Shown here in pieces: positions 8,401 to 58,400 of a stretch of DNA of 64,000 nucleotides. This DNA is from Phoronis australis (taxonomy: Eukaryota > Animalia > Phoronida), in contig NMRA01000012.1 of NCBI GenBank assembly GCA_002633005.1, positions 1,480,357 through 1,544,356 on the forward strand. Direction: 5' to 3'. The notes under the pieces were generated by a model. The model was given only the letters and a program-made list of their open reading frames with translations, was not told where the DNA came from and ran no database searches. Each line of letters opens with the position of its first letter. Within the stretch, counting starts at the first letter, position 1. The position numbers were made by a program, and so were the translations under genes.

Positions 8401-11400
8401 CAGCCAACCCAGCAGGCGCCATTTTTTAATAAAATTGGGGGAGCCAAACTGAACCATGGCTCAAAAATATTGAGTGCCTCCTTATCTCCTGAACAAAGGA
8501 GAGTTCTATTGCCGCACAATCTGGGACGGCCCTATTGTTTCTGTTTGTGGAATAAAAACCTTATCTCGAGTTTACCTACATGTACAGGTAATTTCAATTG
8601 CCAGTAGAAAATTAATGAAAATCGGTATCTAATTATGCAAAATTGCAAGATAAGACTAAATTATGTTGAACAGTGGATAACATTTGGCAATTTTTCTGCT
8701 CGATTTTTCTAACATGTCAGAGTCGGTTCGGATTCAAGCTGAGGCTTTCAGTGGACATAGGAATAATTTAAAATAACTTAGATGTCCTTTACGTTTATGT
8801 GGAATCCTAGAAAAATACCAAAATTTGTCTAAATTCGGAACGTCATTTTAAAAAATGGATGATCAGATTCAAATTAAATTTTCAGATACTATGCATTTGC
8901 ACTGTTTCTTTTTTCTTAAATTTTACTACAATATGTTGCCTGGTGACAATTAATGCAGACTTATAAATAGTCTAAAATCAAGCTTTAAAAGTTTTCAATT
9001 CTCAAAAAAATGTATACTTTTACTTAGTATAAATCTATAGTTCTTTGTAGCCTACAAGCGTGACTAAATACTCAGACTTGTCAATAACTTTCCACACACC
9101 CTTAAAAGAATAGTAAACCCTGTTTTTATGATTTTAACCAAAGTCACCGGCTAATGCATCATTGGTGTCCCACTTGAGGGATTTAAGTCACAGCTTTGTA
9201 ACTTTTTTACCTTGGATAAGTAGTAAACAAATTGCCACGCGGTTGAAGGTGGTTCTGTTAAATCTTATTTCTTGCTACAAGGTATATATATTTCGTATTT
9301 GAAGTTCCCGGAGAATGAAGATTAAAAGGTGTTTTGGTAGACATATGTGAAATATTGTAAAAACGGTAAATTTTTGTGAATTTGTTTTTGAAATATTCTT
9401 AAGCTCAGTCCTACAGTAACTCAGTAAATGTAAAATATAATTTTGGTGGTCGACAGTTCAGAGATTACCCCCCCCCCCGTCCCAGACGTTACATGTTTTG
9501 CCAAAGTTGCTAAATTTTAAAAAGGTATGCTTACAACGACAACAAAAATCTTGGATTGTTAAATGATGTTAGAATGGGAAGTTATGAATAGTTAATTCAT
9601 TAAAGCCATAGAGAAGTTAGTTTACTTATGGTGAGTGTTAATAGTTAAGATAAACTTACGTGGGAAAGTACGTGAGAGTTGGCTTGGTGTTGAAGACAAA
9701 AATCTACTCAAAAAGCAACTGTACCTTCACTTTTTGCTTCTAATGATTTCGGAAAATTGAGGTTATACACGTATGAGTTCAGTGGGAAATTTCTGTATCT
9801 ATGTATTGAAAAGTTTTGTCCTACGGTGAGAGATCATAAACTCTATTAAGAAACACGTCAAAAATGGATGGCTCTGAGAAAGGTGTTTCTAGGTTGAAAT
9901 GCATCTCATTCCCACTTACGACCAATATGTTGAAATTCCATCAATACCTCTCGCAAATTTATCTCAAAGATTGATTTGCCATGATATCAATAGGGCCGTC
10001 CCGGATTACACAGCGACACTTGACTCTCGCTGAATTTACCCACAATGCCGTAAACATCCCCCAAGCACATTTTTGCCTTGTTTCGTGCCGCCGGAGTTTC
10101 ACATGTTACATGTTGTTGTTTGATTCGTTACAATTTATTCTCGGTTGCATTACTCTATTCGTCCCTCCAATTCCAACGAAGTAGTGTGTGCTGTGGGTTG
10201 CAACTCCGACGTGAACAAGCTGGATAAAATAGACAAATACCCGTGGAGACTTGGTCAGAAATTCTTTGCCTTCCCAACCTCAATGTGAGACAGGAAAGTG
10301 TATCTGATTTCCAAAACTTGGCCACGTGCTTTCTTATCTCCGGAACAAAGGAGAGTTCTATCCCCGTTAATTCGGGACTTCAGTAGTATTGGTTTGTACC
10401 TTTAAAAGAAGGTTCAACTGGCACTGACTTGGAACAGTCCAAGTTTGGAGGGGTTGTCCAACTTGAACTTTATCAAAAGGGATGTTTATAAACACTCATT
10501 TTGCTTGGTGACGCTCTGAATGACATTTTGAGATGAAAATGCCCATTTTAATCTATAGGACATCTTCGGTGGATCGCCCTGTTATCGCCACAGTTTCAAA
10601 TTCATGCTCAGCTAGTCATTTCACCAATGTGGCCTACTGAAGTCTGAATCCGGGCGTGCATTCAGTAACGCTAGGACCTACGCTAGGACCTAGCTTAAAT
10701 CTAGCCAAAGTCACGTGATATCGTTTGAAATACACGGCAATATCTCACGCGAAGTTTTGCTTTTTAGCGAGGTCCTAGCGTTACTGAACGGGAGGCGGGT
10801 GTGTTTTCATAACACTTACGTCCGTCTCTAAGATTATCTTGGACCTCCTTGACAAGTCTGCGTAATTAAACGAATATCTACAAAAGAATAGAGTTTAACT
10901 TAGTAAAAGGATATATTTCTGAAAGTAGAAAGACCGTAGAATTTGATTTTTGATTTTTACCCAATTGCTATGCCTTTTTAGTAAAATTTAGTAAAATAGA
11001 AAGGTACATTTACAGCAAAACAATAGTGACAATAATATGACCAAAATTTTTTGATATAAATGGTCATGATAAAGTCTGAAAACGTTGTTGCAGTTTTCTA
11101 ACGTTTTCGTTTCATGCAACTTTAGAATTGTCATATAGTTTGTAGCCGCTCATGCAAAAGTGAAACATTTTAAAAACAATTCCCAACAGTGTTCGGGATA
11201 ACAGCACATAAAGCATGGTGCCTGAGAGTTTCACATGAATCCATCCAGCCACTTTTGAGGTATGATGTTCCAGAATTTATCAAATCAATCAACTTTTCTA
11301 CGGTCCTGTATAACCATTGTTTTATTTATTGCAATAGGAACTGGAGATCCCACGCTTGACGTGGACGTGCGACAGCGTTCAGTACCGGGTGTTCTCAATC

Positions 11401-14400
11401 ACTCGGTGTCGACGGTGGAGTTAGTGACAGAAACCAAGGTGGAACTGAAACGAAAAGTTGGATTACTCAGCGGAATTTCCCTTATTGTGGGAACTATGAT
11501 AGGTATAATGAATGATATGCACCTTTCGAAAGCAGTCCATGAGCGTTCAATGTCACTGATGCCAAATTTTAGAGAACGAAAGCTGTGGAAGTACCGTCTC
11601 TAGTTTCTGATTCATGACTGACAATTGACTCAAGAGAGAAGACAGATTGTTGGTCTTACGCTCAGTAGCGTGCAGAGATTTGGTGATGCCCGGGGCGATA
11701 TTTTTATAGGATGCCCCTTTCTCTACTCAAATGCATGGACCCTAATACTAAGAAAAGTAACGAGTGAAATATAAATAGAAAATTTATTCAATTTAGCTAC
11801 TAACCAGTCACAAGTTCAAAAAGTTTATTCATGGGATGCCCCCACCCCCTGATGCGGTGGATGCCCGGGGCCGTCGCCCTGTCGCCCCCCCCTTCTGCAC
11901 GCTACTGCTTACGTTCCTCAAAATTACTCTTGAAACATAATTAAATTTCAGCTGAACAAAACTGCAGTCTCTGAGAATATGAACATAACTGCTAGTTAAT
12001 TCTAAGCTGTCATGCGCTCATAATTACTTGGCTAAAACTTCATTCACCAATAGTTGTGAAGTGGAAGCATAAGACCGAACTTAGACTGATGTCACTTACA
12101 TGAAACAGACTCCCCATTTAATTTGTTCTTTGTCAGAATGTGATTGTATACGCAGGTAAGACTTCTAAGCTCCAGATTTTTCTCTGAGTTTTTTTGAAAT
12201 GGAGAGAAGTTGTCGTCAAGGAGACCCCTTCTCCTTACCTTTTTGTATAATATGTGGAAATAATTCGACGGGATGGTGACATGACTGGGATCAGGATAGG
12301 TGTTTCTGAGGTTAAACTGATCCAGTACGCCGACGACACTTGTTTAATTTTGGACGGTTCTGAATTATCTCTTAGATCATCTTTGAATTTTATTGACCAA
12401 TTTGCGACATTTTCTGATTTGAAGCCAAACATCGAGAAAACAAGATGTGTTTGGATTGGTTCAAAAAAGACTCTGACGAAAAGCTTTGTGTCAATGAAAA
12501 ACTGTTATGGACTAACAAACCTTTCATGTTTTGGGAATTAACTTCTCCTCTGATTATAATACAATAACAGATATTAACTATAGTGGCAGGCTTTTGGAAA
12601 TTAAGAAAATGGTGGGCTCCTGGCCAAGAAGAATTCTTACTGTTTTTGATAAATTTACCGTGGTTAAGACACTTTTATTGCCCAAGATTGTTCATATACT
12701 TCAATCCCTCCCTAGCCCCTTCATTGACATGATTCAAGAATTATAGCGAGTTTTTTGGCTTCATTTGGAATGGGAAGAATGAAATTGTTGCGGGTTAAAA
12801 ACGGTTCATGTTTGTTTTTTATTAAGTCTTTGAAAATATCGTGGCTTCGTAAACTATTCACCTCAAATACCATATGTGACCTTGCTGAGGCAGTTTTGGG
12901 TTGTAAAGTTGATAACTTTTTTTAAAATGGGGCACGCTTTCCTTAAAAAAATAGCTGAAGGAACCGACAATCTGTTCTGGAATGAGGTTTTAAGCGATGC
13001 TGTGCTCCCGTTTCAAATTGTCGGGAAAATTAAAATATAATTTACTCTCCCCTGCGGTATAATTCAAAGATTAAAGTTGGTAGAAAATCTATTTTCTACA
13101 AGACCTGGTATGAAAGAGGAGTCTACCGTGTGTGTGATTTGTTTAATGCTGAAGGTTCTTTTATGTCATACGAAGAACTCTGTAACAGTTATAACTTTCA
13201 ACCTCCAATACTAGAATTCTATGGATTAAGAAGTGGAACCTTTGCAGCGTACATGGGTCTTAAGAATAGACAAGACAGTATCTGTTTACCAAATTTTCCA
13301 AGTTCTATTTATAACATTTTGCATAGTAAATCCCAAGCGGTAAATATTTATGACACCTTAGTACAGTCACTTCGGACAGCTTGTAAATATAAAAACAAGT
13401 GGTCATCTGAGACAGATATAAACATTGTTATAAATAATATAAATTTTAGTGACCCTGATACATGGTGGAAAAAAGTAAATAAACTCTCCTACATTTGTAC
13501 AAAAGATACAAAATTGCGTTGGTTTCAATACCGCTTAATTCACAGAATATTGCCAACTAATAATTATTTGCATAAAATTAAAATAAAAACAAGTGATTTA
13601 TGCTCTTTCAATGGTAAATAGAGTGAAATTTTTCTCCATCGGTTTTGGTAATGTCGTCTTGTCTCCGGTTTCTGGCTCCTGTTTGCTGAGTGACTAAAAC
13701 AAACATATGTAAATTTTCATGTGGACAAAATAACAGTGTTTTTCAGTTTTTTGGGAAAGACTCAGTCGGAAAATTGTGACATTAATCTGTGATCATACTA
13801 GCAAAAAATTACATATTTAGCCAAAAGTTTGTTAAAAAATCTCAATTTCCAAATGTTCGTAAACGTTATTAAGTTATATCCTGAAGAAAATACGGTACTT
13901 GTTGGCTAGTGATTTAATGTTATTCTTCGTAAATGAACTATACTGTATTGTTTTTGTGACATGTAATTATCATGCTTCAGCAAAATAAAAATATTTAAAA
14001 AATACATCTAAGCTTTGACATTCTAAAATACACGTGAAGTTCCCAAGAAGTGTAGATACACTTTGCCTCGAACTTATCTGGCTGCTTCCCGACCTAAACG
14101 CCAGACGATTCGGCAACTAAAAATTTACGTGAGGCGTCTGTGGAAGACTTTTTAGGCATCACAGAGTGTCGCATTATAAACCTCATGCTTTTTTGCATTT
14201 TAGGATCTGGTATCTTCATATCGCCAAAAGGAGTGCTACAGAGTACAGGATCTATTGGATTGAGTCTTTGCGTTTGGGCTGCCTGCGGAATAATTGCTCT
14301 CTTAGGTAACTGCAACATGACGAAGTACAAAATATTTCACGAAATCCCCACGTGCAGTGTTTTTCTATGTAAAGTCCCATGAAATCTAAGCTACGGCAGA

Positions 14401-17400: not shown

Positions 17401-20400
17401 TTCTTTGGTAATCCGGAATTCGTCAGAGAAACCACTGTCGACGAAATGCCGGCCACAGACACGGAGATGTTTTACGGCCTCATACTTGTTATTAACAGCG
17501 TACTTTTCATTCTTCACTACCGCAGGCCACTTCCTAAGCATTTCGGGCTCTCGAGGAAGTCGATAAAACGATTTACCAGCTTTCTTCGTAGCTTCATATT
17601 AGTTCGAACAAGCGGGAACTATGCACAGCAATATAGCGGCATTCACTCTGCATAGGAACCACTGACGTCTCTGCGTCGTTTCTCACCTACCTCACAGGTT
17701 AACGCGACACCTCTCGGCAAGGTGAGGTCGACCGTATAAGAGGCGATGTGGATATAGACCGACTAAGATGGTAAAAAAACTAATCAAATCGAGTGGCATT
17801 CTCCTTTAAATCCAACGTAATTGAGTTCTCTATTAACCTAGCTTGTAGAATACTCGTCGATGGGCAGCGGTGAGGACAACTTTAGGAAACCAGCACGAAA
17901 ACGATCGTAGAGCAGAGCCTCATAGTAAACTCGAACGCAGAAACAAAATGGCGGGAAACTCCCTTAAAGGTCACTTCCGGAATAGGACATAGCTGATTAA
18001 TTAAATCACATGAAGCCGTAATTAACTGAAAGATATGTCTGGGATAATCAACAAACCGCATTTTTACTGAAAATGACATGAAAACAGGTTGCTTTCTCCT
18101 TTAACGTTATCAACTTGGTCACGAATTGTTTCTTCGTCAAACCTGTTGTGATTTCTGGGCTTCTAGTAAACTGGCACGAAGTTCACGGCGTGAACGGAAA
18201 TTTTATTAGCTGGGTCTGGAGAAATAACCAATTCTTCCCGAGCTCAGATATCACTTCTAAACTGGGTAAAGAACAATACAAGACCCGTTTTAAAACGGTT
18301 TTTGATAGAGGGCACGAGTTTAATGCTACGTTACTTTCTACTGATGTGTGAATAAACTGAGAGACACCGTAGCTCACCGACTGCCTGACTCAGGCTTCCC
18401 TTGAATGTGGTGTTTAGAATCACTTTGTATTAGGACTATCATGATCATTCATACATTACTGACATAAGCATATTAACTGTTAGTGAATACGGCAAAATAA
18501 GTGGAACCCTTCTTGTTGAATGGAACTCCGTTGATAAAACTTGGTGTACGCATTATGCCGATACGGTATAATTGTTCTTTCTGGACGTTCATCCCGAAGT
18601 TTGCTCTGCTTGGCTGTGTGAAAATAATTTAAGACTATACAGCGTGGAATGAAAAGAACGAGACGTGACGCATACATGTACAATGTTCATACCTGAGTTT
18701 GTGAGTCAAGTGTTAAAATGAAGGCCAGTTTGGGAATTTCCATAGTATCCTTGCTGTAACCTGCTTCAGCCCTGAAAAATAGAGACGAATATGGTTTCAT
18801 CCCTGCAGGCTCCATGTGCTATGCTGAACTTGGCGTGACTATAACGCGCTCTGGCGGCGAGTACGCGTATGTGATGGAAGCATTTGGCCCAGCGTTTGCC
18901 TTCCTCGTCAGCTGGGTGTCTGTACTGGTCATACGACCATCTAGTATAGCAATTATATGCATGTCATTTGCCGAATATGCGTTGGCTCCAATCTTTGACG
19001 CATGCGGGCCGCCAGATCTGATTACCAAGTTAGTCGCAGCAGCCGCCATTTGTGAGTACCGTCCCCATCGTCAGCATGCACTGTCACTGGAAAGTTTTGC
19101 TGTGCACTCGCTAGCTGCTGGCCTAGTCTCGAACCCAGAATCTACTTAGCATTTGAATCTGGTGAAGTTATTAGATAACTGGTTTTTGATTGACCAATCA
19201 AGAATTAGGTTCTCCGCAGTATCTGCTTGTCGATGTATACAAATCTGCTTAACTCGAAATTCACGTTTTACAACCTTAAGGTTATGTAGAACCCTAGAAA
19301 AATGGCCAAATTTGACTAAGTTTGGAAAATCATAGCTAAAAAATGTCTAATTGAATTCATACAAAACTTTGAGATGCTATGGTTCATGCAGTGTTCTCTG
19401 TTAGGAATTATTTTTAAAATGCATGAGAGAGTATAAAATATATGACTTATGATTTTCATGAAAAATCTAAAGTTGCATAAAACGCAAACAAAATGATAAT
19501 TTAAAAAACTGTAAGAGCGTTATTGAGATTCCATTTTGGGGCTATGGGCGGTATTGTTATGTTTTTTATCAATATACATTTCTTTATTGTTAAATTTTAC
19601 CAAATGGACTTGGTCACATGACCCAGTTAATGATTGGCTATTAAAAAAGTGAAAAACGGAATTTTACAGGCTTGCCTCTTTCATGAAATGTGTGTAAATA
19701 CACAGACAAGGGCCTACATAACCTTAACTAGCGTAACTTGTGCTATAATCTAGATGATACACCGTAGTGATCAGCACGCCCAATGCTTTCCGTTGGCACT
19801 CAAGTAAATCATTTTGTTTTGTTTTCAGTAAGTTTACACTTAGACACCCGTTTTTTATGTCATGACGTCTGTCCAAAAAGTACAACATACAACATAAATG
19901 TTTGAGGAGCGATCGAAAAATATATTTGTCTCACAAAATTACAGAAAACGAGAGAAGTTAAAGACGATTTTACATGTTGAAATACGCATACAGAGATTGT
20001 AGATTTGCATAGTAAAACCTAATCAAATGCTCTCGTTTTGAGTCTTCGCCAGACTCAAATGCTAAAATTATCCATAATGCCTTCGTTCGGCTAGAGGCAT
20101 TTTCCATGTCAGGTTCAACGTAGCCTCGCTTTAGCTCACTGCAAACACCATGACGTCACAACAGGCACATTTCGATTGCTTGGTTTCGACACACCGATTG
20201 AATGTTAAAAAATAAACCTGAGATCTCAGTCCGTCTGTTTTATGTATACATGTATAAATACATATGCGTATACATACACATTCACACACACACGCGCGCG
20301 CGCGAGGCTAAGCTAGCTAACGGACAAACGTATTAGTATCGTCTACACACAACCTACCCTAGAACAACTTGCCCCCCTTTAAGTGGAGCGGCCACACACA

Positions 20401-23400
20401 CATACCCGATAACTGGGGGTAAGACGGAAGTTGTCGCTTTGTGCATGACAATGCACAGCTGATGACAATACGGCGCGCAAAAGAAGACCCGTCTGTATGT
20501 AACCGTAGCTGATAAATACTTCCGCCTTGCCAAAGGTATGCGGCCACCCAACGATTAGAATTGGCACACGTTACCCAAGAACATTTTCCCCTACCTCGGT
20601 AAGGTGGAGTACGTGTTGTAGGGTAAGTCTGTGTGTGGACGGCACTTATGGGTGAGTAGTCTTACAAGGTTCTCCGCACTAAACGTGACGAACATTGTTT
20701 TATTCGTCTTGCCAATTGGCAGTGATCTCATCTTTCATCACTTCCCTCAAAGAAGAAAAGAAAACACGCTAAAATGGTTATACGACACGATGGAGTACCT
20801 AAACCTAGTTAGACCTACTCTTACCCTTTCAACCACTGATGATGTCATGAAGATTCCTTGAACAGCTTTTAGCTTAGTGATTTTAAGTCTCCAGTAGATT
20901 GTTTAAACTTGTATTGAAAATTTGTATTAATTCAAAGGATTTAACAGTACTCATTTACGCCAGGGTGGAAAATGTTTCGTTTTGACTCGAACATTAATCA
21001 TCTAGAATTGTTGCCTTGGCGTTATGTATCGACTTTGTTACGTAATATGAAACCGCAACTTCGATACTTCCACCTCGCTGTTAACCTGTATGCGGATCCC
21101 GTGTGTTTTTCGAGCATATCACGTTGCTACCGCAATCTCTGGTACACTTGGTTGCCTTGCACAAGATAGTTACTGAAGCAGTGATGACACAATTGAAGAG
21201 TTCCATAAACTTGGATTCAAGCACTTGGAAATTCTATTGATGTTGGCGAATAATCATGGCCACAGCTTCAGTCTAAGACAGATAAGTTGCACCTTAAAAC
21301 CCGAGGCAACAAATACGTCTTAGGTGATATTTGTGATGTTGTCGAAAGAAAGCTGGAAAAAATCTTCGTTATCTTAGTTTGCATAACAAAGCAACCAAGG
21401 TCCATAATAACAGACAGAATCCGTGAGTCAGATCATGCTTTAGCTTTTCCCAACCGTCGGTCCACAAGTGTGACAGGCCCGACTAACTGATCTTTCTTGC
21501 TTCCAAAATTGAACACCAGGAAAGCCCGTGGAAGGTAATCAAACGTACCAGGTATTGTGCTATCGACGTAAGAGTCTCGAAAAACACGTGGGAATAAATC
21601 TAGAGTCTATAACAGCAAGGCCGAAATATTTTTAGCAAAGTGTTGAAACATGAGATTAATGTCAGAGTAAAGTCAAATTGGATTTTACCCACGTAGAAAT
21701 GTTTCCACTTTAATGGGATTATTTTCTCCATGGGAGGCAATATTTCCACTCCGGTGACAAAGATCTAAATAGGTTTTAAAACAAAAGGAAAATTTGTAAA
21801 TGTCAGAAAAAAAATGTAATCGTTAAGCTACCCAAGACCGAGACGTGACTTGCAGCTGGACTACTACATGTCTAGGCCGATACGAGACTCATTTGTTACG
21901 CCACGTGTGGAATTTTTTGCATAACATTTGAATTTTTTTGTTTAATGATTCGTTCCTGGAGCTACTGAAGCTCATTTTAATAGACTCGCCAACAAATCCA
22001 AAAGTTAAATCAGAAACAAGCGACAGATAGCCTGTAACGAATCGGAGGCACTCATTACGTTTCTATACTCGCTTTCGTATCTAAATGAATATTAATGAGA
22101 TATTTTAATGAATATGTCATGATAAATGAAAAGCGAGTGAAGCAAAATACTGCACATTGAGTATGGAATTGTCTCAACAGGTTTAACATAATTCGACTCT
22201 TAACGTTGCCTCATTCCTCAATGCGACATGAAACGTAGTTGCAGTTGTTCTCACAGGGTACGAGAACGTTCAAGCAGAATAATAACGTGGTTCCTTTGGG
22301 GAAGGCACATTGCAGAAGCATGTCAGGACTAATGGCGAATATTTTCATTAAGCAGATAAAGTGTAACTCACAAGTTAAAAAATTTATCAAATCATAACAG
22401 GATAACTTTAAAAACGGCAACCTGCATTTCATCACGACTTTACCAATACGGCGACCAACAGTTTATGACGGCAACTGCGTTTTTTGAATTTTGGCTTGTG
22501 ATTGACTGGCGACAAAACTTTTATTGTACACGTGGTGATCGTGAAAAGTCATGCTCATACTCGACATCTTTGTAATCACTTTTATTCTATCACTACCTTC
22601 CAGTATGACAATGCCAGCTATTCACACTCACGACATGCATGGTAGCTTGGTACATATATTTGACCACAGTCATATGGTGTCAGTCAGTGTGACGAATAAG
22701 CCTAATTCACGGCTTAATGTAATTACTTGTACAAAAACACTCGGACCATTTTCAAGGCATCAGGAATGATTACAAAGTGTATTGTTCTGCTTATTGGAAT
22801 TTACCATCTTGTCTGTCCCAACTAATCACATAAAATCACCTTAATTCAGGATCACTGTGTTACGCCGAACTGGGAACTTTCGTCGCGCTCTCTGGTGGTG
22901 AATACGCGTATCTTCTTGAGGCGTTTGGACCAATCCCCGCTTTCCTTTTCTCCTGGGTGAAAGTGCTTGTTATTACTCCCTCGTCGCTTGCAATAATCAG
23001 CCTCACCTTCTCAGAGTATGCACTTACAACTTTCTTTGACGATTGTGGACCATCCACGTTTATCACGAAACTTCTCACTGGAGCAGTAATACGTAAGTAT
23101 GCCAACACCTTTCTGCAAAATAGAAGAGTGATAGATCGTGCACGTTCTTTAAAGCAAAGTATGTTTTTACGTCACTGAAGTGTATACTAGACGGTTTTAC
23201 ATAGAGTGCAAATGAACTTTACGCTCATAACCAATGTGCTCTTGCATATACATTCCCTTACGAAGTTTCCAAACCTAAACAAAAAGTTTCAACCTGTCAA
23301 CTCAGTGTAGTATTTCCGCTTCACCAGTACTAATTTATGAAGATTCAAACTTTACTTAAATGAAATGTCAGAGACAAAATAAATGCATTCAGGCTAACGA

Positions 23401-26400
23401 AGCTGCTCATTCATTCGATCAGCAGTGGAGCTCTGTTGCCTTGAATCTATAGTACTGAGTTTGCCGTGTTTGAGTATACATGTACTAGTTGTTTGTTTAG
23501 TTTGCTTAACGTTTGACACTTTTTAGTGTTTATTGTCGTGATGATGCTTTAGCAATTAAAGTGAAACGTTGAGCATGAAAATCTACGTAGTGGTGCTGGT
23601 TTTTAAATTTCTTTTTATGATTTGGCCAAAATGCGTCCATCTTGATCACTAAATTTGTTTTGGTATCAGACGGCAGACCAAAATGGAATGTAATAGGTTA
23701 TTGTATTTGCCTCTCGATATTAAAGAATGTATTTTCAGGTAACTGTTGTTTCAAGTACTTTTCACCAATATTCCAGTGGCGATCGTGATCATAAATTCGT
23801 ACTCTGTCAAGATGGCCGCCAAGGTCCAAGTCTTTTGTATGTTTGCTAAACTGGCTGCGCTTGCCATGATTATTGTCGGCGGTATCATCATGTTGGCACA
23901 AGGTATGAATTTTCTGATCTGCTCACGCCTATCATTTCAGCACCTCTTAAAATGCGTGTTTTCACCAGTGTGTAAAGACATTTCCACGACTTGTATCAGT
24001 GAGCGAACACCAACCGTATGTGAAGTTACACGTACCTCAATGCGAGCTCGTGTGGTCCTACGCTCTTTCGAATGTTTTCATAAATTAAGCCCAAAGAGTT
24101 GTAATAGCGTCGGTTATTGTTTGGGCGTTTTGAATGTAAGCGCCATCAGGGATCGCTTGCTGTATAAAGTCACGTTAACTTATTGACGCCGTTCCTTAGA
24201 TACTCTTTTGGTAGTCTTTGGCTTTAAGGTTGTCTCCAGCCATATTTAGTGGTCTCTATTCTAACTCGTATATAAAAAACTGAGCTTTGTCAACTAGTAG
24301 AAGATTAGGGAATGTGAAAATACTTTTTGTATTAATGTACCATTATTATTTTTCGTAAAAACCTTTTTTAAGTCAAAATTTTATTTGTAGGAAAGGTATA
24401 TTCATAGCAAAATAACCCCTTGGTCGATTTTAATGAAACTTTTTTAAATGAAAACTTCACCAGTTACCTCAATAACGTTGTTAGGAATTTTCGATTAGTC
24501 TTTTTGTTTGGTTTCTATGACAAATCAACTCGCACGTAAGGTATCTTTTTAGAAACCGTAAGTCGTATTCGTTTTGTTACATTACGCAAACAATAGGTCT
24601 TTATATCAAAAATCCTACCAGTGTTTTGAAACTGATGACTAAATATTAAGTTTGGAAAGTTTCAGCAAAATCCACCAAGCCGTTTTCGAGAAATCGTGTT
24701 CCTAATTTCAAATGAAGTCGATTTGCCGAAGCCGAGAAAAAGCCGATTAAACTGGGACAAGTGAAAATCTCCGAGTGTTCGGTTATTATTCGGTGAAAGC
24801 TTGTTTTCGGTACACATAATCTATACAAGCTATTTCAACATTCACTCGCAAAGTCAACTGATTTTGCAGTGCGTAGTTAACTTAAATTATCATTAAAACG
24901 TACCGGTCCCAGCTAACTACTGTTGTTTACGACCATTTGACCTACTTTATATGTAAATAGGTCACAGTTCATTGTTATACACATAGCCTGTACGTCACGT
25001 GCTGGGAGACTGATAGTACAAAACCAAGTAAGAAATGGGTAACAAAAATCGAATCAGTGGTTAAAGCATGTCGTTAGCATGAGACCGAAACATTGAAATG
25101 TCACGTGATTGCTTGAATGAAGGAATTAGGGTGAGGATTTATCTCTTTTCACAATTGGCTGTGTTCATGACCACAGAGGCCTGAGGCGACAGTAGCATTC
25201 GTTCTGAATGCCAACGGTCGTATGCATGTAGACGCACGACTCCCTTAGGATCAAAACAACGTTTTGTCTCTGTTGTCCCCGCAACAGGACGTGCAACTTG
25301 ACTGTGACGAAAACAAATAGCTCACTTGCGAGTTTCTCGCTAGTCACTGTGACGTCACCGGAAAGGGGGCAAAATCCGCCATATTGGTCTTGTTTTGCCC
25401 CGAGTCTTTGCTACACACGCTAAAACTTACTGGAGTTCTTATGGTGAATTTTACGCTTAAAACGTTAAAACAACTTAAGATATGGTAGATGGGTCGTGGA
25501 ATAACTGTGAATAGACGAAGAAAATGTGACCTTATTATGTTGTGCCAAGCTGTGAACGGACTGAAATTGGAACTTAACCCGCTCTAGGCCTGAATGGCGC
25601 AGGCATACAGGGGCGATAGTGTATCCCCTTAAAAAGATATTCACTTCAAAATACAGCAAATAAAATCAAATGAAACATGCATATGTGCACATGAAGTTAT
25701 AATTAACACATACCCTGACTCTGGACACAATTTAGTCTACAAATAACTTGAGCATATTCATGAAAACCTCCGGGTTCTCTCGAGTTTCTCNNNNNNNNNN
25801 NNNNNNNNNNNNNNNNNNNNNNNNNNNNNNNNNNNNNNNNNNNNNNNNNNNNNNNNNNNNNNNNNNNNNNNNNNNNNNNNNNNNNNNNNNNNNNNNNNNN
25901 NNNNNNNNNNNNNNNNNNNNNNNNNNNNNNNNNNNNNNNNNNNNNNNNNNNNNNNNNNNNNNNNNNNNNNNNNNNNNNNNNNNNNNNNNNNNNNNNNNNN
26001 NNNNNNNNNNNNNNNNNNNNNNNNNNNNNNNNNNNNNNNNNNNNNNNNNNNNNNNNNNNNNNNNNNNNNNNNNNNNNNNNNNNNNNNNNNNNNNNNNNNN
26101 NNNNNNNNNNNNNNNNNNNNNNNNNNNNNNNNNNNNNNNNNNNNNNNNNNNNNNNNNNNNNNNNNNNNNNNNNNNNNNNNNNNNNNNNNNNNNNNNNNNN
26201 NNNNNNNNNNNNNNNNNNNNNNNNNNNNNNNNNNNNNNNNNNNNNNNNNNNNNNNNNNNNNNNNNNNNNNNNNNNNNNNNNNNNNNNNNNNNNNNNNNNN
26301 NNNNNNNNNNNNNNNNNNNNNNNNNNNNNNNNNNNNNNNNNNNNNNNNNNNNNNNNNNNNNNNNNNNNNNNNNNNNNNNNNNNNNNNNNNNNNNNNNNNN

Positions 26401-26597: not shown

Positions 26598-29500
26598 ATG
26601 GCTAGTGCGAAGAAAGCAAAAGTGGATCGAGTCACCTTCAAATTGTTAATGCACTTATTTTACCAAAAATGGCTTGAATGACATCTGGTTAGGCTATTTT
26701 TGGGGGCTGACCAAAGAATGTATATGAATGGTAGCGTTTTAGACTACTGGCAATCAGAAACTTTCCTATTCTATTATGGTGGTCACATAAAAGGAAAACG
26801 AAAATTACCGCAAAATCTGGTAGGCAAGTGAACCGAGCATGCGCACTCCACTGAATTAAAATCCGGAAATTCATTCACTGAAGAAAGCGCACTCTAACAA
26901 TCAATGACGGTAGTAACAAGAATTTCCGAGCATAGTGATGTGTGACACGTGACAAATGGCGCCCTTTTACGTATAAGCATTAGGCGAGCTTTCGTCCGAT
27001 ATAATCGTGGGCAGTGCACCACAGGGGGATGGGGTGGAGCTATAGCCCCCACTTTTTCCAGTGCTGAGTCGCCCATGATAATAGGTACAAAAAATGGATA
27101 CTTGATGCAGTCAGCCCTGCCTGACTACTGTGTAATATTTGAATCCAATTTCTACAGGGCGCACTGAACATCTAGCTACTGGATTTGAAGGAACGAGCGC
27201 AAACCCCTCTTTGATTGCATTAGCGTTTTACGACGGGCTTTGGGCATATGACGGTTGGAACAACCTGAACTACGTCACGGAGGAATTAAAGAATCCTGTT
27301 AAGTAAGTAAGGACAGAAATATAGCTGAGCGTGTGTGAAAATGTGTAGACCAGTTCCTAACACAGGCTGGAGTCTCCGATCTATTCTGGCCCATGAATGG
27401 CCATAAGATGACGACCAACGAAGGCTCATCCTCTCATCAAGGATACAGGTAAGTTTAATAATTTGTGTAATATGCCAGCCCGGTAGTGGCAACATCTTTA
27501 TAAGGTGACATCCCGTTTATACTGCGTTGGTGTTAGTTCGTAGTAAATGCTCTGATACAAACCATATCTTACGGACTGTACTTTTGTCTTTGTCTTCTAC
27601 GGCTTAAATGTATATTTTTGCCGAATTAAATTCTATAGTTTTGCTGATATTTGGCTAAATGTACAAGCTTGTCGATAAGTTCTTACATAACCTTAGAGCT
27701 ATTTTTTTCATTGTGAACTCGAAATCTCGCGTTTTTTCACTACAACTCTCGAGTTTTTACTTAAATTCCAGCTTGAAACTAAAGATCATCAAGTGCAAAC
27801 TTGGACTAGCTGTATAAACCAGACTATACTCAAGCACACAGAAATAGATCTTAATCCCGCGTTTGTAGCAAAGTAGTACGGAAAACGACCTTAATAGTTT
27901 CGAGCTCGAGTTTGAGTTCACTGAAAGATTGGATCCCGGGCCCGGAACACGTTACGCACTTAATGCGTGCATGAATAGTATTTAGGACTACTCTGAAGCT
28001 TGTTGATGTGCGTTTAGACGATCTTTAGTGCAAAAAACTGGGACCTCCTTCACAAAATTGTTCTGGCCAGGGTACCCATGGGGTAAATCAAGCACTGGCA
28101 GTTGGAAAATGCTTTCAGAATTTGTCCCTTTTCTTGTTTTTGTCTTATCTTTGTCCTCCCGAATGCCCCCGACCGTTAGCCTATGCCGATTGTCACAGGT
28201 TCACTCTGATGTCTGCAAATTGTTGGAGGGTGTGTGCCCCCCGCTTCATACGGCCCTGGGCGTTGGTTCTAAAGTATATATTTCACATGTTCTGTTTATT
28301 TTTGGAAGAATTTTATTGCTTGGTCTGCATTTATAAACAAACATCTGTTTGGGTACGAGACATTTCTTTGACTAGGATAAGTCTCTTCAGTGTCTGCCTG
28401 TTTCAGGAATCTGCCGCGGGCCATCATCATTGGTATTCCACTCGTGACGATCCTCTACCTTTTGACCAACATATCATATTTTACTGTAATGTCTGCTCCG
28501 GAACTGCTGGCCTCCAGCGCTGTTGGCGTCGTGAGTAAAAGTCCAACTTTGAGCGCAGTTGTAAGAGAATCGCTGGAAGTACCGTACGTCCGAGACTTTC
28601 CTTATCCTAATGACACAGTAGTCAGCCGCAGGATTTGAAATTAATTATAATGTATGCATAACTTTTTCTCATGAAGTGGCCTCAGTTACAGAATATTGGT
28701 CAGTGGCGGATTTGGGGGGGGGGAGAAGGGGGCCATGCCCCCCACACTCTTCCAGATTCCATTTGGTAATTCGGGGGTGCGAATGTCTGACGGGCAAAAT
28801 CCTGGCTAATACTCTGCTCTGGCCCCCCCATAACTAAAAATCCTGAATCCGCCCCTGGTGGTAACTTAATAAGCATGCAAATTCCACTGGAACTATTGCT
28901 AATACGAAAACCCTAATGTCATTTCCTAGAAAAGCGCTTTCCATGACTACATTCAATAGTATTTTGTAGACGTGGGGCGAGCAAGTTATTGGAGGAGCGG
29001 CCATCATAATACCCATAGCAGTGGCCCTTTCTACGTTTGGTGCAGCCAATGGGACTGCATTTTCCGGCGGTCGTTTGCTCTTCGTATCTGCACGTGAAGG
29101 TCACATGATGAGTGTGTTGTCCATGGTTCACGCTAAACGACTAACTCCGATGCCTTCACTTGTCTTCACAGTAAGTCACTCGAAGAGGTCTTACAGCAAA
29201 AAACTATTCTAGTGGCTCATGCGTTTTGAATAAAAATAGGTACGAATTTTTAAAATTTCTAACTTCAATGTTCAAAATCAATATTTAGAAATCTTTTTCA
29301 GGATACTCGAAATTGTAGTTTTGCTTCGAGTTTTATTCGGGTTATCAGGGGCGCCTTCAATAAGCCTACAGTTTCGAGAGACACTTGAAGTGAGAAATCT
29401 TGGCATTGGAATAATGATTATTTTGTTGTTGTTTTTTTTGTCATAATCCAACATTCCGTCTTAGTCGTCCAATCACTATCTGTGGCAGCCGCTGTGCCAG

Positions 29501-32500
29501 GGTAGCTCATGTACGTTAGTAAGGTCACAAGCTAAGTCGTCAAACGCAGCGAGTGTGCTTGGGGAGTTTGCACGTAATCTCATAAACGCATGGGCGCCAC
29601 AGACAGCGATTTGACGGCTAAGCCGGAATGCTGGATTATGGGAGATTTTACACATCTAGTTACTGGACATGAAATTTTAAGAATACAGAGACGTGCAACA
29701 CCATAGGTTACGTAGTGATTTAGGCAGCTGGGACAAAATTGTAGTGAAACGGAATCATGGAGCAGTTGAGTATGCATACTTAAAGCTGTAATAAGTTTTG
29801 TAAATTTGAATATCTGCACGCACCAGGAGACCTAGGATGAAATGTAGGCACTTGTAACTAATGGGGCACATGTCTCATCACCGCCAGTTCAAATTGCGGG
29901 AGAGGTGTGTTAGCGGTTCCAATTTCTTGGTGACTCTCTTCTGCCATTGTTGAAACCATTCACAAAGTAGATGCTGTCATTTCGGAAGATCGTCGTTTAA
30001 CTTACTCAAGACCTAAAGATTATTGTACGGGCAATTTAAGATCGATGTCTTTATGGTGAATTTACAGGCTCCTTACAACTTCCCATGGCAAACAGGAATG
30101 AGACAATTGTCCCAAGGTTCCGTATGCCGAGAGAACCAACTATTGGCTTTGACAGATTAGTTATTGTCTAAAACATGGTCCTTCAATGTGATCCAGAGAG
30201 TGCAGTCAAATCAATGGAAGCAGTTTAAATAACCATCCCCAAAACTGAGCTGTACTCTCCTGGATCCACTGTGTCCATGTAACAGAAATTTCAGTAGAAG
30301 TTATAGTCTGTAAATTGCTCCATAACCTATGGAGACGCACATCTTTGTGCTGGTGAAACTTTATCTTTCTGCACTACCCAGTAGGGGATTACAAAATATC
30401 CTTATCGAACGCTGCATGTCAACTGTTGGTTCGCTAGCACCAGAATTTCTGAAAGCACGCTTGCCTGCAAAAGCTCCTTGAATTTCTCAATTATCCATTA
30501 CTGTTTTCCAGGGTATAATAGCAATCATTATGATCATTCCGGGAGACATCTTTACGCTGATCGACTTCTTCAGTTTCACCGCTTGGTTGTTCTACGGCGC
30601 CACTATGCTTTCCTTGATCGTAATGAGGTTTACGAAGAAAGACGTCCCCAGGCCCTATAAGGTGACCAGTCTAATATGTGATATTATGCAGCTTCGTCCC
30701 CAAGCCTCAAGATGGCGCTGATCGGTTTAGCCACTTAGGCTTGATGAAGAAATACGTCCCTTCTGCGCGCTGATTGGCCGTAGACGACGTTCACCGCTCA
30801 CAAGAGCTACTCAAGAAACCTTCAAACATTTAAATCTCTGAATACCTAAATACCAGTTCTTGAAAATTCTTGTCCTTGATTATTTTTCCAAAAATTAAAC
30901 AAGATCTAAACACAGAATATAACTATTTTCACTGCCGTTGTTGTTGCTACCATTGGTGATTCGGAAGCATAAGACACTGTTTTCTAACGTAGAAAATAAA
31001 TCCGAAACTACAAAGGGCGATCCAGATCCTCTAAAGGATACACTTGCGTGTTGAAAAGTAGAATACATATACGTAAATAAAACAACAAAAATGGATGCAT
31101 TTTTGTTGTTTTATTTACGTGTACACTGTTTTCGTTATGTTTGAACTAAAAGGTGCTCGCGTAGGCCTACTTATTGTCAATTCTGATTTTTTGAAAGCAC
31201 CATAGAATTTATCCTGTCTTGAATTCAAATAAATCAATTTTCAATGATCTAACTCTAAGTTGCTGCATAAATACCGCTCAATTTGATAATTTGTGTTATA
31301 ACACAGCAATTTTCAGACGTGATGCAACATAATATCATTCGTGATTTTCCGTCGATTTCTGTAAGAATGTGTCAGAATTCTTACAAGTGAATCTCCCCTC
31401 ACCTTTCAGCGCCAGCTTGAGGGTTGCGGAAGACGCTAGGCATTATGATGACATAAACAAACGGATGACTTTTGTATTATTCTAGAAAGAATTCAAAAAC
31501 TTTCTAACTTCGAAACATTATATCTCAGAAATCGCTCACCGGATTCAAATAAAACCTTCAGATTCTATGCTTTACGCTCTGTTCTCCAATACGCTTGCGG
31601 TTGCGAAATGTTTTTACATTGACTCACTTTTGCATGAGGATTATCAAAAATAGGAGTTATGTTAAAAATTTAGGAAACCGTTACTGATTTTTGAGAGTTC
31701 ATCTTGCACATTTATATCAAAGAAACTTGATCACGTGATTGTTGCGTTTGGGTTGATAAGGACGCACCTTTTTTTGTTGAATTTTACTAAAAATACGTGA
31801 TCTCGTAACCCAATCATTGACAGATGGGTATAGAGGGAAGAGTAAATTTCTACAGACTTTCTTCTTTGAGAAAATGTTAACAGACTTGTCCAAAGGTCCT
31901 ACATAACCTTAAACACCTCGCCAACTGCATAAAATTTCTGTTCAAACAAATCGAACTTTAGAAGATTAACAGTTTTGTCACATGTAATTGGGCGAGCCGA
32001 CTTGCTCTAAACTTTATACAAGACTCTTAAAAATGACCTAACTTGCCAAACGAAATAATAATTTTCCTTCGTGCAAAAGTTTACAAAAAGACATAGTCAC
32101 GTGACCTAATTAACAACAGAATGGTATAAAGTCACACCTGACATTGTACCAGCTTTTTACTGTGTGAAAATATATAATTTTACTGAGATAAATCTATAGT
32201 TTTTCAGACATTTGGGTAAATACACAGACTAACAACTCTATGCAATAGTTGGTGAAGTAATCTGTCAAACCAAAGTAGAACATGACAGAACATTCATACA
32301 GAAGAACTGAAAGATTTGTATTTAGAAACGTGATGCAATACAAGCATACAGTATAAGTATTTGTGACGTTACATGGGTTGTGATGCTTGTTCAGCTAATT
32401 GACATTGTCTTTTGCAGGTGCCGATCATCATCCCCATAATCATCCTACTCGCCTCAATATACCTGGTGGTCGCGCCTATCATTCAGAATCCTGCTATAGA

Positions 32501-33342
32501 GTTTTTATATGCCTTCTTGTTCATTATCGGTGGACTTCTCGTTTACGTTCCCTTTGTGCACTTCAAAATATCTCCCCGTTTTATGGGTAAGTCTGTAATG
32601 GAAAATGTCTGCGTAAACCTGGGGTGGGTACAGTAGACCCAAAACACTCGCGAAACACTTGAGGTTAGAAATCGTTGCTGGAAATAAAGCAGTAAAGTCT
32701 GTGCAACATTCCTACCTAACCGACCAATCACATTTTGCTTAAGTACTTGTAAGGCCGCGGGGATACTTGAGAAACTCACCTTTCACTCGTGCGATATCGC
32801 GAGGTCTTGTTTTTTTCTCGAGATTATCGTGTCTACTGAACACATCTTGGATCTTTCCCTTCTGGAATCCTAAAGTAGGGCGCCATGGACGTTGTTATTA
32901 TAGAAGTCCTCATGGGCGGCGCACCATAGGGGGCTGGAGTGCTGTAGCTCCCCACTTTTTCAGTGCTGCGCCGCCCATGGTCCTGAGTAAGACCAACTCA
33001 TGACGACATACGAAAACATATTACTGAAGGCTGGCAGTCTTCCAATGGGACTGGCTGCTTTTGTTTGGCTTCCTGGGGGCGTGCTCTTGGAAACTGAGTA
33101 AAAGTGCACTGGGATAACTAAATACCTGAAACAAAAGTGGATTGATGGCGCTTTTGTACATTTGAAATGAAGGACCTATGAAATTAAACCGATATGTTTC
33201 AATCACATTTATCGTATGAGAACTAATCAATGTTTATAATGAACACTGATGTCAATGACCTAATTTTGTTGTAGATTACATCACAATGTTTTTTCAACTC
33301 CTGTTCGAAGTCGTACCAACCGAGACGATGCCAGAGGATTAA
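5416..33342 (+). CDS. SLC7A9: Gene B: complete SLC7/LAT light-chain amino acid transporter, b(0,+)AT (SLC7A9)-like, 505 aa. Exons 5416-5440, 11338-11502, 14204-14305, [18809-19051 or 22850-23092], 23777-23902, 27158-27302, 28407-28530, 28970-29170, 30512-30661, 32418-32586, 33275-33342
   Basis: All exons GT-AG bounded with consistent phases, summing to 1518 nt with one exon 4. Motifs [63 protein letters not shown]. The TM6 W-A-Y-D-G-W signature is b(0,+)AT-type; exact orthology is untested. Confidence 0.9.
7473..8533. mobile_element. Non-autonomous TIR DNA transposon (AGGGCCGTCCCGGATT-type termini, AT/TA 2-bp flank)
   Basis: atagggtcgtctcggatt ... aatctgggacggccctat inverted ends; empty site (ggaattgttt) in gene C intron 1 near 39184; second copy at 9992. 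Confidence 0.7.
8295..8377. repeat. Perfect 41-bp tandem duplication
   Basis: attcaaaaatcaagtgaagaccgaccgttcgaagccttcac twice. Confidence 0.9.
9992..10380. mobile_element. Internally deleted copy of the 7473-8533 element
   Basis: Aligns to 7473-7790 and to 8480-8530. Confidence 0.65.
10652..10797. mobile_element. Short MITE
   Basis: ttcagtaacgctaggacct (10661) / aggtcctagcgttactgaa (10770-10788) inverted repeat. Confidence 0.6.
11338..11502 (+). CDS. Gene B exon 2 (N-tail, start of TM1)
   Basis: tag|GA..ATA G|gtataa; [22 protein letters not shown]. Confidence 0.9.
11663..11907. mobile_element. hAT-type MITE
   Basis: TIR cagtagcgtgcaga/tctgcacgctactg; 8-bp TSD cttacgct/cttacgtt. Confidence 0.8.
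12172..14002 (+). mobile_element. 5'-truncated, degraded L1/Tx1-clade LINE (RT + C-terminal zinc-binding region)
   Basis: [38 protein letters not shown] motifs broken by stops and frameshifts; A-rich tail; imperfect TSD acttctaagct/acatctaagct. Confidence 0.9.
14204..14305 (+). CDS. Gene B exon 3 (TM1b-TM2)
   Basis: ttttag|GA TCT..TTA G|gtaac; [12 protein letters not shown]. Confidence 0.92.
14977..18100 (+). mobile_element. Kolobok-like DNA transposon (outer), degenerate THAP domain at about 15242-15560
   Basis: TTAA TSD both sides, AGGAGA..TCTCCT termini, long imperfect TIR; [15 protein letters not shown] remnant; empty site in gene C at about 49545. Confidence 0.8.
16184..17805 (-). mobile_element. 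Kolobok-like DNA transposon (inner, nested), degenerate THAP domain at about 17420-17640
   Basis: TTAA TSD, TIR aggagaatgcca/tggcattctcct; minus-strand [23 protein letters not shown]. Confidence 0.8.
18809..19051 (+). CDS. Gene B exon 4a (candidate mutually exclusive; TM2 end-TM3-TM4 start)
   Basis: ctgcag|GC..ATT T|gtgagt, 243 nt, phase 1-1; CYAELG..VIRPSS..FDACGPP. Confidence 0.9.
19280..19723. mobile_element. Kolobok-type MITE (GGTTATGTAG termini)
   Basis: ttaa|ggttatgtag..ctacataacc|ttaa; orthologous copy in gene C about 52744-53430; related ends near 8790-9105, 31910, 40071. Confidence 0.75.
22850..23092 (+). CDS. Gene B exon 4b (candidate mutually exclusive duplicate of 4a)
   Basis: attcag|GA..ATA C|gtaagt, 243 nt, phase 1-1, open frame; CYAELG..VITPSS..FDDCGPS. 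Confidence 0.85.
23777..23902 (+). CDS. Gene B exon 5 (TM4-TM5)
   Basis: ttccag|TG..CAA G|gtatg; INSYSVK..QV..AKL. Confidence 0.9.
25791..26557. other. Assembly gap (N run)
   Basis: Run of n. Confidence 0.99.
26558..26592. repeat. (CA)n microsatellite abutting the gap
   Basis: Direct observation. Confidence 0.95.
27006..27077. mobile_element. About 70-bp mini-MITE (CATGGGCG.. termini, 5-bp TSD ataat)
   Basis: Inverted ends, TSD, homologous to 32911 and 55088. Confidence 0.7.
27158..27302 (+). CDS. Gene B exon 6 (TM6)
   Basis: tacag|GG..GTT AA|gtaagt; [24 protein letters not shown]. Confidence 0.93.
28407..28530 (+). CDS. Gene B exon 7 (TM7)
   Basis: tttcag|G AAT CTG CCG..GTC|gtgagt; [13 protein letters not shown]. 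Confidence 0.92.
28701..28857. mobile_element. MITE with CAGTGGCGGAT/ATCCGCCCCTG termini
   Basis: Inverted ends; ttggt/gtggt flanks; absent from gene C intron 7. Confidence 0.7.
28970..29170 (+). CDS. Gene B exon 8 (TM8-TM9 start)
   Basis: ttgtag|ACG..ACA|gtaagt; [20 protein letters not shown]. Confidence 0.92.
30512..30661 (+). CDS. Gene B exon 9 (TM9-TM10)
   Basis: ttccag|GGT..AAG|gtgacc; [17 protein letters not shown]. Confidence 0.9.
32418..32586 (+). CDS. Gene B exon 10 (TM11-TM12)
   Basis: ttgcag|GTG..ATG G|gtaagt, 169 nt. Confidence 0.92.
32911..32979. mobile_element. 69-bp mini-MITE (5-bp TSD gtcct)
   Basis: catgggcggcgca..tgcgccgcccatg perfect TIR, gtcct on both flanks. Confidence 0.75.
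33275..33342 (+). CDS. Gene B terminal exon ([22 protein letters not shown])
   Basis: ttgtag|AT.., TAA stop, homologous to gene A terminal exon. Confidence 0.88.
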
Positions 33343-58339: not shown

Positions 58340-58400
58340 GTAAGTCACCCCATGAGAGCTCTAGCCCTGGAATGCCAACTTCCATCTCGTACTGCTGAGG

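What the first reader, a model, noticed from the sequence alone, without database searches (positions are those of the whole stretch)
18809..23092. Candidate mutually exclusive exon pair (4a/4b) swapping the TM3 substrate-pocket module of an SLC7 transporter
Seen: two intact exons, both exactly 243 nt and phase 1-1, with canonical splice sites and 52/81 identical residues. Both join exon 5 to give Leu (T|TG, C|TG), and both keep the extracellular Cys (FDAC/FDDC). Known: that Cys is the one LAT light chains use to disulfide-link to SLC3 heavy chains (LAT1 C164, b0,+AT C144), and TM3 lines the substrate pocket. Inference: including both exons would duplicate two helices in a LeuT fold, so they are probably spliced mutually exclusively. 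One gene would then encode two transporters with different pockets. Heavy synonymous divergence with both frames open implies an old, selected switch. I cannot tell from here whether it has been described.
Basis: partly seen in the sequence, partly recalled or inferred. Interest (0 to 1): 0.85.

Follow-up and report, generated by a model that had tools for sequence, protein, structure and literature searches.

The report
Swappable pocket exon in amino-acid transporter
An invertebrate amino-acid transporter gene carries two old copies of the exon for a helix that lines its substrate pocket; RNA shows one copy dominant and the other rare, joining both creates a stop codon, and the swap likely yields two transporters with differently charged pockets, a trick already known from another member of the same family.

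Summary
Both exons are 243 nt, AG..GT, phase 1-1, 52/81 identical, in a b0,+AT (SLC7A9)-like gene. RNA reads join exon 3 to 4b (44 reads) and 4b to exon 5 (28), and exon 3 to 4a (4 reads, one run); 4a>5 and 4a>4b were not listed (under 3 reads). So 4b is the main exon here. Joining 4a to 4b reads T|GA, a stop. A tandem paralog in the window kept 4a and let 4b decay; both exons of this gene show purifying selection. Lingula RefSeq isoforms X1/X2 differ only in this same module; crustacean models carry it twice; crayfish and an acorn worm have a second alternative block at TM8. 4a keeps the basic residue equal to xCT Arg135; 4b has Thr there and a Lys five residues earlier. Altered specificity is inferred, untested. 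It works like SLC7A2 CAT-2A/2B. No paper on this exon pair was found; the scan noted an analogous SLC38A9 case on other DNA.

The parts
11340..11502 (+). gene B exon 2 (first coding exon found; the exon with the start codon was not located)
   Evidence: junction 11502>14204 in 14, 7 and 8 reads
14204..14305 (+). gene B exon 3, common upstream exon
18809..19051 (+). alternative exon 4a (end of TM2, IL1, TM3, EL2 with the Cys, start of TM4); Arg at the xCT Arg135 / b0,+AT Lys121 position; minor in the RNA examined
   Evidence: 4 junction reads from exon 3 in run X1; helix map
22850..23092 (+). alternative exon 4b; Thr at the Lys121 position, Lys at the Ser116 position, both EL2 prolines replaced; major in the RNA examined
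   Evidence: 44 reads from exon 3, 28 reads to exon 5, plus one contig
23777..23902 (+). gene B exon 5, common downstream exon
27158..33342 (+). gene B exons 6-11 (27158-27302, 28407-28530, 28970-29170, 30512-30661, 32418-32586, 33275-33342 with stop)
   Evidence: canonical splice sites and one open frame; predicted, not checked with RNA
52271..52513 (+). intact exon 4a of tandem paralog gene C (90.5% identical in DNA; Gln at the Lys121 position)
54188..54425 (+). decayed exon 4b of gene C: acceptor AG lost, a 7-nt deletion, a 2-nt insertion, two stops, weakened donor

Best explanation
Exons 4a and 4b are an old tandem duplicate of one exon in a b0,+AT-like SLC7 light-chain gene, and they are likely used one at a time, so that one gene likely makes two same-length transporters predicted to differ in the charge of TM3 and in the loop that meets the heavy chain. 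Shown: 4b is spliced in between exons 3 and 5 and is the main form in three RNA runs; exon 3 is also spliced to 4a, rarely; a transcript with both exons has a stop at the join. Inferred: 4a is spliced on to exon 5 in some tissue or stage not well sampled here; double inclusion is removed by nonsense-mediated decay; 4a (Arg at the pocket position) behaves like an ordinary b0,+AT/xCT-type pocket, while 4b (Thr there, Lys five residues towards the cytoplasm) has a shifted substrate preference or affinity. After the whole gene was duplicated, copy C kept 4a alone.
For: Junction reads 14305>22850: 22, 7, 15; 23092>23777: 8, 8, 12 and one contig; 14305>18809: 4, 0, 0 (about 18-19% of each run read). 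4b>5 counts did not change at 85% likeness, so paralogs do not inflate them. 4a>4b reads T|GA. Gene C's 4b differs from B's evenly over codon positions (12, 11, 11), and at 21 of 21 changed residues B holds the residue commoner in homologs. B4a and C4a differ at 12 residues, at most 5 assignable to the B line against about 12.7 expected if neutral (P 0.013, rough); branch lengths 0.04 and 0.15-0.18. Lingula XP_013381449.1 and XP_013381450.1, both 519 aa, differ at 32 positions, all within 122-190, inside this module; Lingula is the closest held relative, 68-70%. Position 42 of the module is b0,+AT Lys121 and xCT Arg135; Arg135 binds glutamate and cystine, and Ala or Lys there is inactive (PMC8654953, passages). 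It is Lys or Arg in 258 of 265 aligned copies from 252 held proteins, Thr in none (a redundant, vertebrate-heavy set).
Against: The 4a>5 junction was not listed in any run (threshold 3 reads); about 1.5 reads would be expected in X1 from the 4b ratio, so the blank is uninformative but the join is not shown. Depth over 4a (0-3) is no higher than over the neighbouring intron. The 4 reads come from one run and could belong to a half-spliced or stop-containing transcript, or to gene A, whose 5' part lies outside the window (its exon 10 is 92.9% identical). Crustacean RefSeq models include both copies together. In the wider family position 42 varies (Lys or Arg in 122 of 151 copies that cover it), and other pocket residues of TM3 (b0,+AT Thr123) are the same in both exons. 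No transport data exist. No cis mechanism was found.
Confidence: 0.72

Rival explanations
1. 4a is now a rarely used or poison exon in gene B: when included it is joined to 4b, the stop at the join sends the transcript to decay, and only 4b makes protein; the 4a protein survives, if at all, in a paralog.
For: 4 of 48 exon-3 junction reads go to 4a, none listed from 4a to exon 5; 4a>4b is T|GA; 4a depth is at intron level.
Against: 4a has kept its amino acids in the B line since the gene duplicated, which a poison exon need not do; Lingula has both as full-length alternatives; gene C, with 4a only, adds no visible reads at 85% likeness.
Confidence: 0.15
2. The exons are mutually exclusive, but what the swap changes is mainly pairing with the SLC3 heavy chain or trafficking, not the pocket.
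For: 11 of the 29 differences lie in EL2 and the start of TM4. In LAT1 these parts form the heavy-chain interface and EL2 starts and ends with conserved prolines (10.1101/577551, passages); 4b has Thr and Ser at these two places (mapping).
Against: The disulfide Cys and three of the four TM4 interface positions are the same in both exons; the most unusual changes in 4b are the charged ones in TM3.
Confidence: 0.2
3. 4b belongs to another or a collapsed gene copy, or is an assembly artefact.
For: The window is a tandem array of three paralogs and holds an N gap.
Against: Reads join 4b to this gene's own exons 3 and 5 and cover the intron between 4a and 4b on the gene's strand; gene C has the same 4a-4b order; no other SLC7 exon lies between.
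Confidence: 0.01

Closest known systems
SLC7A2 CAT-2A / CAT-2B (PMC12714141, passages read)
   Same: An SLC7 gene whose mutually exclusive exons 7 and 8 give two transporters that differ in arginine affinity and capacity.
   Different: CAT subfamily, not a heavy-chain-linked light chain; its exons cover a shorter stretch around the TM8-TM9 loop (recalled, not checked), not TM3-EL2-TM4; function measured there, not here.
Lingula anatina b0,+AT isoforms X1 and X2 (XP_013381449.1, XP_013381450.1)
   Same: Same gene family, same 81-residue module replaced, same total length.
   Different: An automatic annotation only; both Lingula forms keep a basic residue at the Lys121 position. Whether the two pairs share one origin is unresolved (AU p 0.31-0.49 for all groupings tried).
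Crustacean sobremesa / b0,+AT-like gene models (Oratosquilla, Panulirus, Procambarus, Hyalella, Cyprideis)
   Same: The same exon module is present twice in tandem.
   Different: The models held include both copies in one open frame; the two copies group together in the tree (85-91 bootstrap, not starred), suggesting a separate duplication; Procambarus also has at least five alternative blocks at TM8.
Invertebrate NALCN alternative pore exons (PMC3557258, abstract read)
   Same: A duplicated exon swaps a charged selectivity residue within one invertebrate gene.
   Different: An ion channel; unrelated fold.
Tandem duplicated exon substitutions as a class (PMC9741552, passages read)
   Same: Old, often convergent, enriched in membrane transport genes.
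   Different: The main text has no occurrence of 'SLC7'; its supplementary tables were not read and may list SLC7 genes.

Membership tests
SLC7 heteromeric light chain, b0,+AT (SLC7A9)-like | best solved-structure and database matches are b0,+AT | tested here: met
   both exons hit b0,+AT chains first, E 2.8e-27 and 6.4e-25; homologs named b(0,+)-type, Pfam PF13520
SLC7 heteromeric light chain, b0,+AT (SLC7A9)-like | extracellular Cys for the disulfide to the heavy chain (Cys144) | tested here: met
   aligned in both exons; role from PMC7159911 passages
SLC7 heteromeric light chain, b0,+AT (SLC7A9)-like | pocket residues Trp230, Asp233, Trp235, Ser379, Trp383, Tyr386 | tested here: met
   all six kept in gene B; Gln237 is Asn (macaque protein as numbering proxy)
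SLC7 heteromeric light chain, b0,+AT (SLC7A9)-like | pairs with an SLC3 heavy chain and exchanges cystine and cationic amino acids | not testable with these tools
mutually exclusive tandem duplicated exons | homologous neighbours of equal length and phase with working splice sites | tested here: met
mutually exclusive tandem duplicated exons | each exon joined to both flanking exons in RNA | tested here: inconclusive
   three of four junctions seen; 4a>5 under the 3-read threshold
mutually exclusive tandem duplicated exons | not included together, not both skipped | tested here: inconclusive
   4a>4b not listed and would be a stop, so decay could hide it; 3>5 not listed, where one joint row was hidden
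mutually exclusive tandem duplicated exons | both copies under purifying selection | tested here: met
   strong for 4b, moderate for 4a
SLC7A2 CAT-2A/2B switch | CAT-subfamily gene with the exon 7/8 pair | tested here: not met
   the gene is b0,+AT-like and the pair covers TM3; no second copy of exon 8 in the window
SLC7A2 CAT-2A/2B switch | isoforms differ in transport kinetics | not testable with these tools
   needs an assay

The most novel reading that the evidence does not exclude
Invertebrate b0,+AT/sobremesa genes are modular transporters: two pocket-lining cassettes, the TM3 exon (this window, Lingula, crustaceans) and the TM8 block (crayfish, acorn worm), were duplicated repeatedly and are spliced to build several substrate pockets from one gene, where vertebrates used separate genes; 4b's move of the TM3 positive charge (Lys at 116, Thr at 121), seen again in two mollusc-type exons, is a recurring specificity switch.
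Probability: 0.3. Interest if true: 0.72.

Novelty: new variant of a known kind. Interest (0 to 1): 0.52.

Why it matters
If the two forms transport different amino acids, they are a natural swap experiment on TM3 of the cystinuria transporter family: same protein, one exon changed, with the residue that decides specificity in xCT replaced. The repeated duplication of the TM3 and TM8 exons in several phyla would show where this fold tolerates retuning. Annotation also matters: gene models that join both copies may be wrong or may be a real enlarged form. As a splicing phenomenon it is of a known kind, with a precedent in the same family.

Tried and rejected
No whole genome is held for the window, so gene A's 5' part, the end of gene C and the heavy chains could not be examined. 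The run search listed no RNA holder; three raw RNA runs and one contig set came by species label. Same-length isoforms of Mya and Dreissena differ only near the N-terminus (and one site at 423), not in this module; oyster and mussel cluster members show scattered differences only. A profile of TM8 variants found one exon 8 per gene, and a profile of the module found no third copy in gene B. A 22-nt inverted repeat (19146-19167 with 20044-20065) looked like a splicing stem, but 2 of 25 shuffles did as well, no pairing downstream of 4b stood out (23 of 25), and the partner is absent from gene C; a larger scan timed out. Trees on 80 columns do not decide the origin: window exons as one clade p-AU 0.49, 4a with Lingula X2 0.31, 4b with Lingula X1 0.44, 4b with the two mollusc-type exons 0.44 (10 and 9 rows left out as long or redundant, named in the scripts). 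An AlphaFold model of the Panulirus double-module protein gave pLDDT 43-57 over the second copy against 86-94 over the first; 39 of the 42 alignment rows have one copy, so this is no evidence against co-inclusion. No paper passage on b0,+AT Lys121 or Ser116, or on LAT1 Glu136, was found in four papers searched by term. The Atlas look-up did not run. An earlier count said that 4a+4b keeps the frame and that gene C's 4b donor is lost; both were corrected later (stop at the join; GT kept but weakened). The exon 8 frame was wrong and was redone.
Full report
Observation. Exons 4a (18809-19051) and 4b (22850-23092) are each 243 nt with AG before and GT after, and are open in the same phase. With either one, exons from 11340 to 33342 give a single open frame of 496 residues before the stop. 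They share 51 of 80 whole codons in residue, 52 of 81 with the split Gly; third positions agree at 23 of 80 and synonymous sites are saturated (pS 0.88, pN 0.25).

The gene. Both exons match human and sheep-type b0,+AT chains best among solved structures. The closest held protein is the b0,+AT of the brachiopod Lingula (68% overall, 70% outside the module), so the animal is likely a lophotrochozoan without close relatives in the collection; no exon hit exceeded 65%. Six of seven b0,+AT pocket residues on TM6 and TM10 are kept (roles from PMC7159911, passages). By the helix map of a crustacean homolog the exon covers the end of TM2, IL1, TM3, EL2 and the start of TM4.

RNA. Three raw stranded RNA runs and one contig set under the same species label were laid on 11200-24400 at 94% likeness, about 18-19% of each run. 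Exon 3 joined 4b in 22, 7 and 15 reads, 4b joined exon 5 in 8, 8 and 12 reads and in one contig, and exon 3 joined 4a in 4, 0 and 0 reads (4 starts, up to 75 letters on the shorter side). So 44 of 48 exon-3 junction reads go to 4b (95% interval 80-97%). One joint row was hidden in that call. A second lay on 18500-24000 at 85% likeness hid no joints and listed neither 4a>5 nor 4a>4b (threshold 3 reads); 4b>5 counts were unchanged and depth over 4a stayed at intron level. This refutes the idea that 4b is foreign to the gene, and shows 4a as rare in these samples. It does not show the 4a>5 join. Gene C reads across the 3>4a join would be about 88% alike and cannot explain a read with 75 letters on each side; gene A cannot be excluded.

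A built-in bar to double inclusion. 4a ends in T and 4b begins with GA, so 4a>4b reads TGA. Such a transcript would encode a truncated protein and would likely be degraded (established knowledge of nonsense-mediated decay). About one pair in ten would have this by chance (my estimate from the codons possible at the join), so it need not be selected, but it also means that absence of 4a>4b reads says little about the splicing step itself. Skipping both exons keeps the frame (G|TG). I found no significant RNA pairing of the docking-site kind.

A natural control next door. The window holds three tandem paralogs: the tail of gene A (864-1032 and about 2494-2545), gene B, and gene C (45.4-58.3 kb). 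Gene C has an intact 4a and a dead 4b (acceptor lost, two indels, two stops). The 34 differences between the two 4b copies fall 12, 11, 11 on the codon positions, and at all 21 changed residues gene B has the residue commoner among homologs: B's 4b is selected, C's is drifting. B4a and C4a differ at 12 residues; C carries most of the unusual ones, at most 5 fall on B's line against about 12.7 expected without selection (P 0.013, a rough test). So 4a was kept under selection in gene B too, although it is rare in the RNA seen. The exon pair is older than the gene duplication.

Other animals. Lingula RefSeq isoforms X1 and X2 are both 519 aa and differ at 32 positions, all between 122 and 190, within this module. 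4a is slightly closer to X2 (48 against 46 of 80) and 4b to X1 (47 against 43), but trees cannot tell one shared origin from separate ones. Models from Oratosquilla, Panulirus, Procambarus, Hyalella and Cyprideis carry the module twice in tandem, in one open frame; whether that is real co-inclusion or a merged annotation I could not test, and single-copy isoforms may lie in clusters I did not see. Procambarus isoforms (at least five variants) and Glandiceps X1/X2 differ in a second block that maps to the first half of this gene's exon 8, TM8; this window has no such second copy. Bivalve isoforms examined do not differ in the module.

What the swap may change. Position 42 of the module equals b0,+AT Lys121 and xCT Arg135. 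In xCT, Arg135 on TM3 binds the distal carboxylate of glutamate and cystine, and Ala or Lys variants are inactive (PMC8654953, passages); a review places side-chain selectivity on TM3, TM6, TM8 and TM10 (PMC8399266, passages). 4a has Arg; 4b has Thr, and a Lys five residues earlier where Ser is usual. In 265 aligned copies from the first 252 held proteins, position 42 was Lys or Arg in 258 and never Thr, and position 37 never Lys. In 153 aligned copies from 148 more distant representatives, Thr at 42 occurred twice, both times with Lys at 37 (P0368, P0369). These two are single-exon frames that group with molluscan sequences (93/92), not with 4b, though a common origin is not rejected (p-AU 0.44); their gene context is unknown. 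The pairing suggests a moved positive charge; its effect is inference. The rival is the heavy-chain interface: 11 of 29 differences lie in EL2 and TM4, and 4b lacks both prolines that bound EL2 in LAT1 (10.1101/577551, passages).

Known and new. Mutually exclusive exons that retune an SLC7 transporter are known: SLC7A2 exons 7 and 8 give CAT-2B and CAT-2A with different affinity and capacity (PMC12714141, passages). Invertebrate NALCN swaps a pore residue the same way (PMC3557258, abstract). Searches for 'mutually exclusive exon' with SLC7, CG9413 with 'mutually exclusive', sobremesa with isoform or splicing, exon duplication with heteromeric transporters and SLC7A9 with splice variants listed no paper on this pair; I saw listings only, the library lacks most subscription papers, and supplementary lists of mutually exclusive exons were not read. 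The scan's index held no look-alike of this DNA and one analogous, unchecked note on SLC38A9.

Verdict. A real, old, selected exon pair, likely mutually exclusive (0.72 for the whole explanation), with one junction and all function still unshown. A new variant of a known kind; interest 0.52.

Noticed in passing
window 45400-58340 (gene C): Gene C has changed several pocket or conserved residues at once (TM3 Arg to Gln, the Glu of the GGEY motif to Gly, and in TM6 the Asp233 and Asn236 equivalents), adds no visible reads over 4a at 85% likeness, and its exons 9-11 are not found up to 64000: a retuned paralog or a young pseudogene.
   Followed up: partly
P0127, P0209-P0212 (Procambarus 429-462); P0152, P0195 (Glandiceps 301-332): A second alternative block at TM8 in b0,+AT-like genes of a crayfish (at least five variants) and an acorn worm (two).
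   Followed up: partly
P0095, P0103, P0127, P0406, P0256: Crustacean gene models include both copies of the TM3 exon in one protein; real enlarged transporter or merged annotation is open.
   Followed up: partly
P0368, P0369, P0387: Unnamed single-exon frames with a basic residue at the 116 position and Thr or Ile at 121, the same pattern as 4b; two are mollusc-type.
   Followed up: partly
window 23731-23745 and 54848-54860: A second acceptor-like site 37-38 nt upstream of exon 5 is followed directly by a donor-like GT in both genes B and C; no reads were listed for it.
   Followed up: no
window 19060-19200: The intron just downstream of 4a is 86-96% identical between genes B and C, more than flanking intron (70-85%); possibly a splicing element.
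   Followed up: partly
window 12251-13618 and 14970-18100: Repeat-derived sequence in introns 2 and 3: a reverse-transcriptase-like remnant (motif recalled, not scanned) and nested inverted ends (14973-15064 with 18012-18104; 16180-16195 with 17794-17809) with RNA reads on both strands.
   Followed up: no
window 63290-63570: A short tandem repeat near the end of the window.
   Followed up: no
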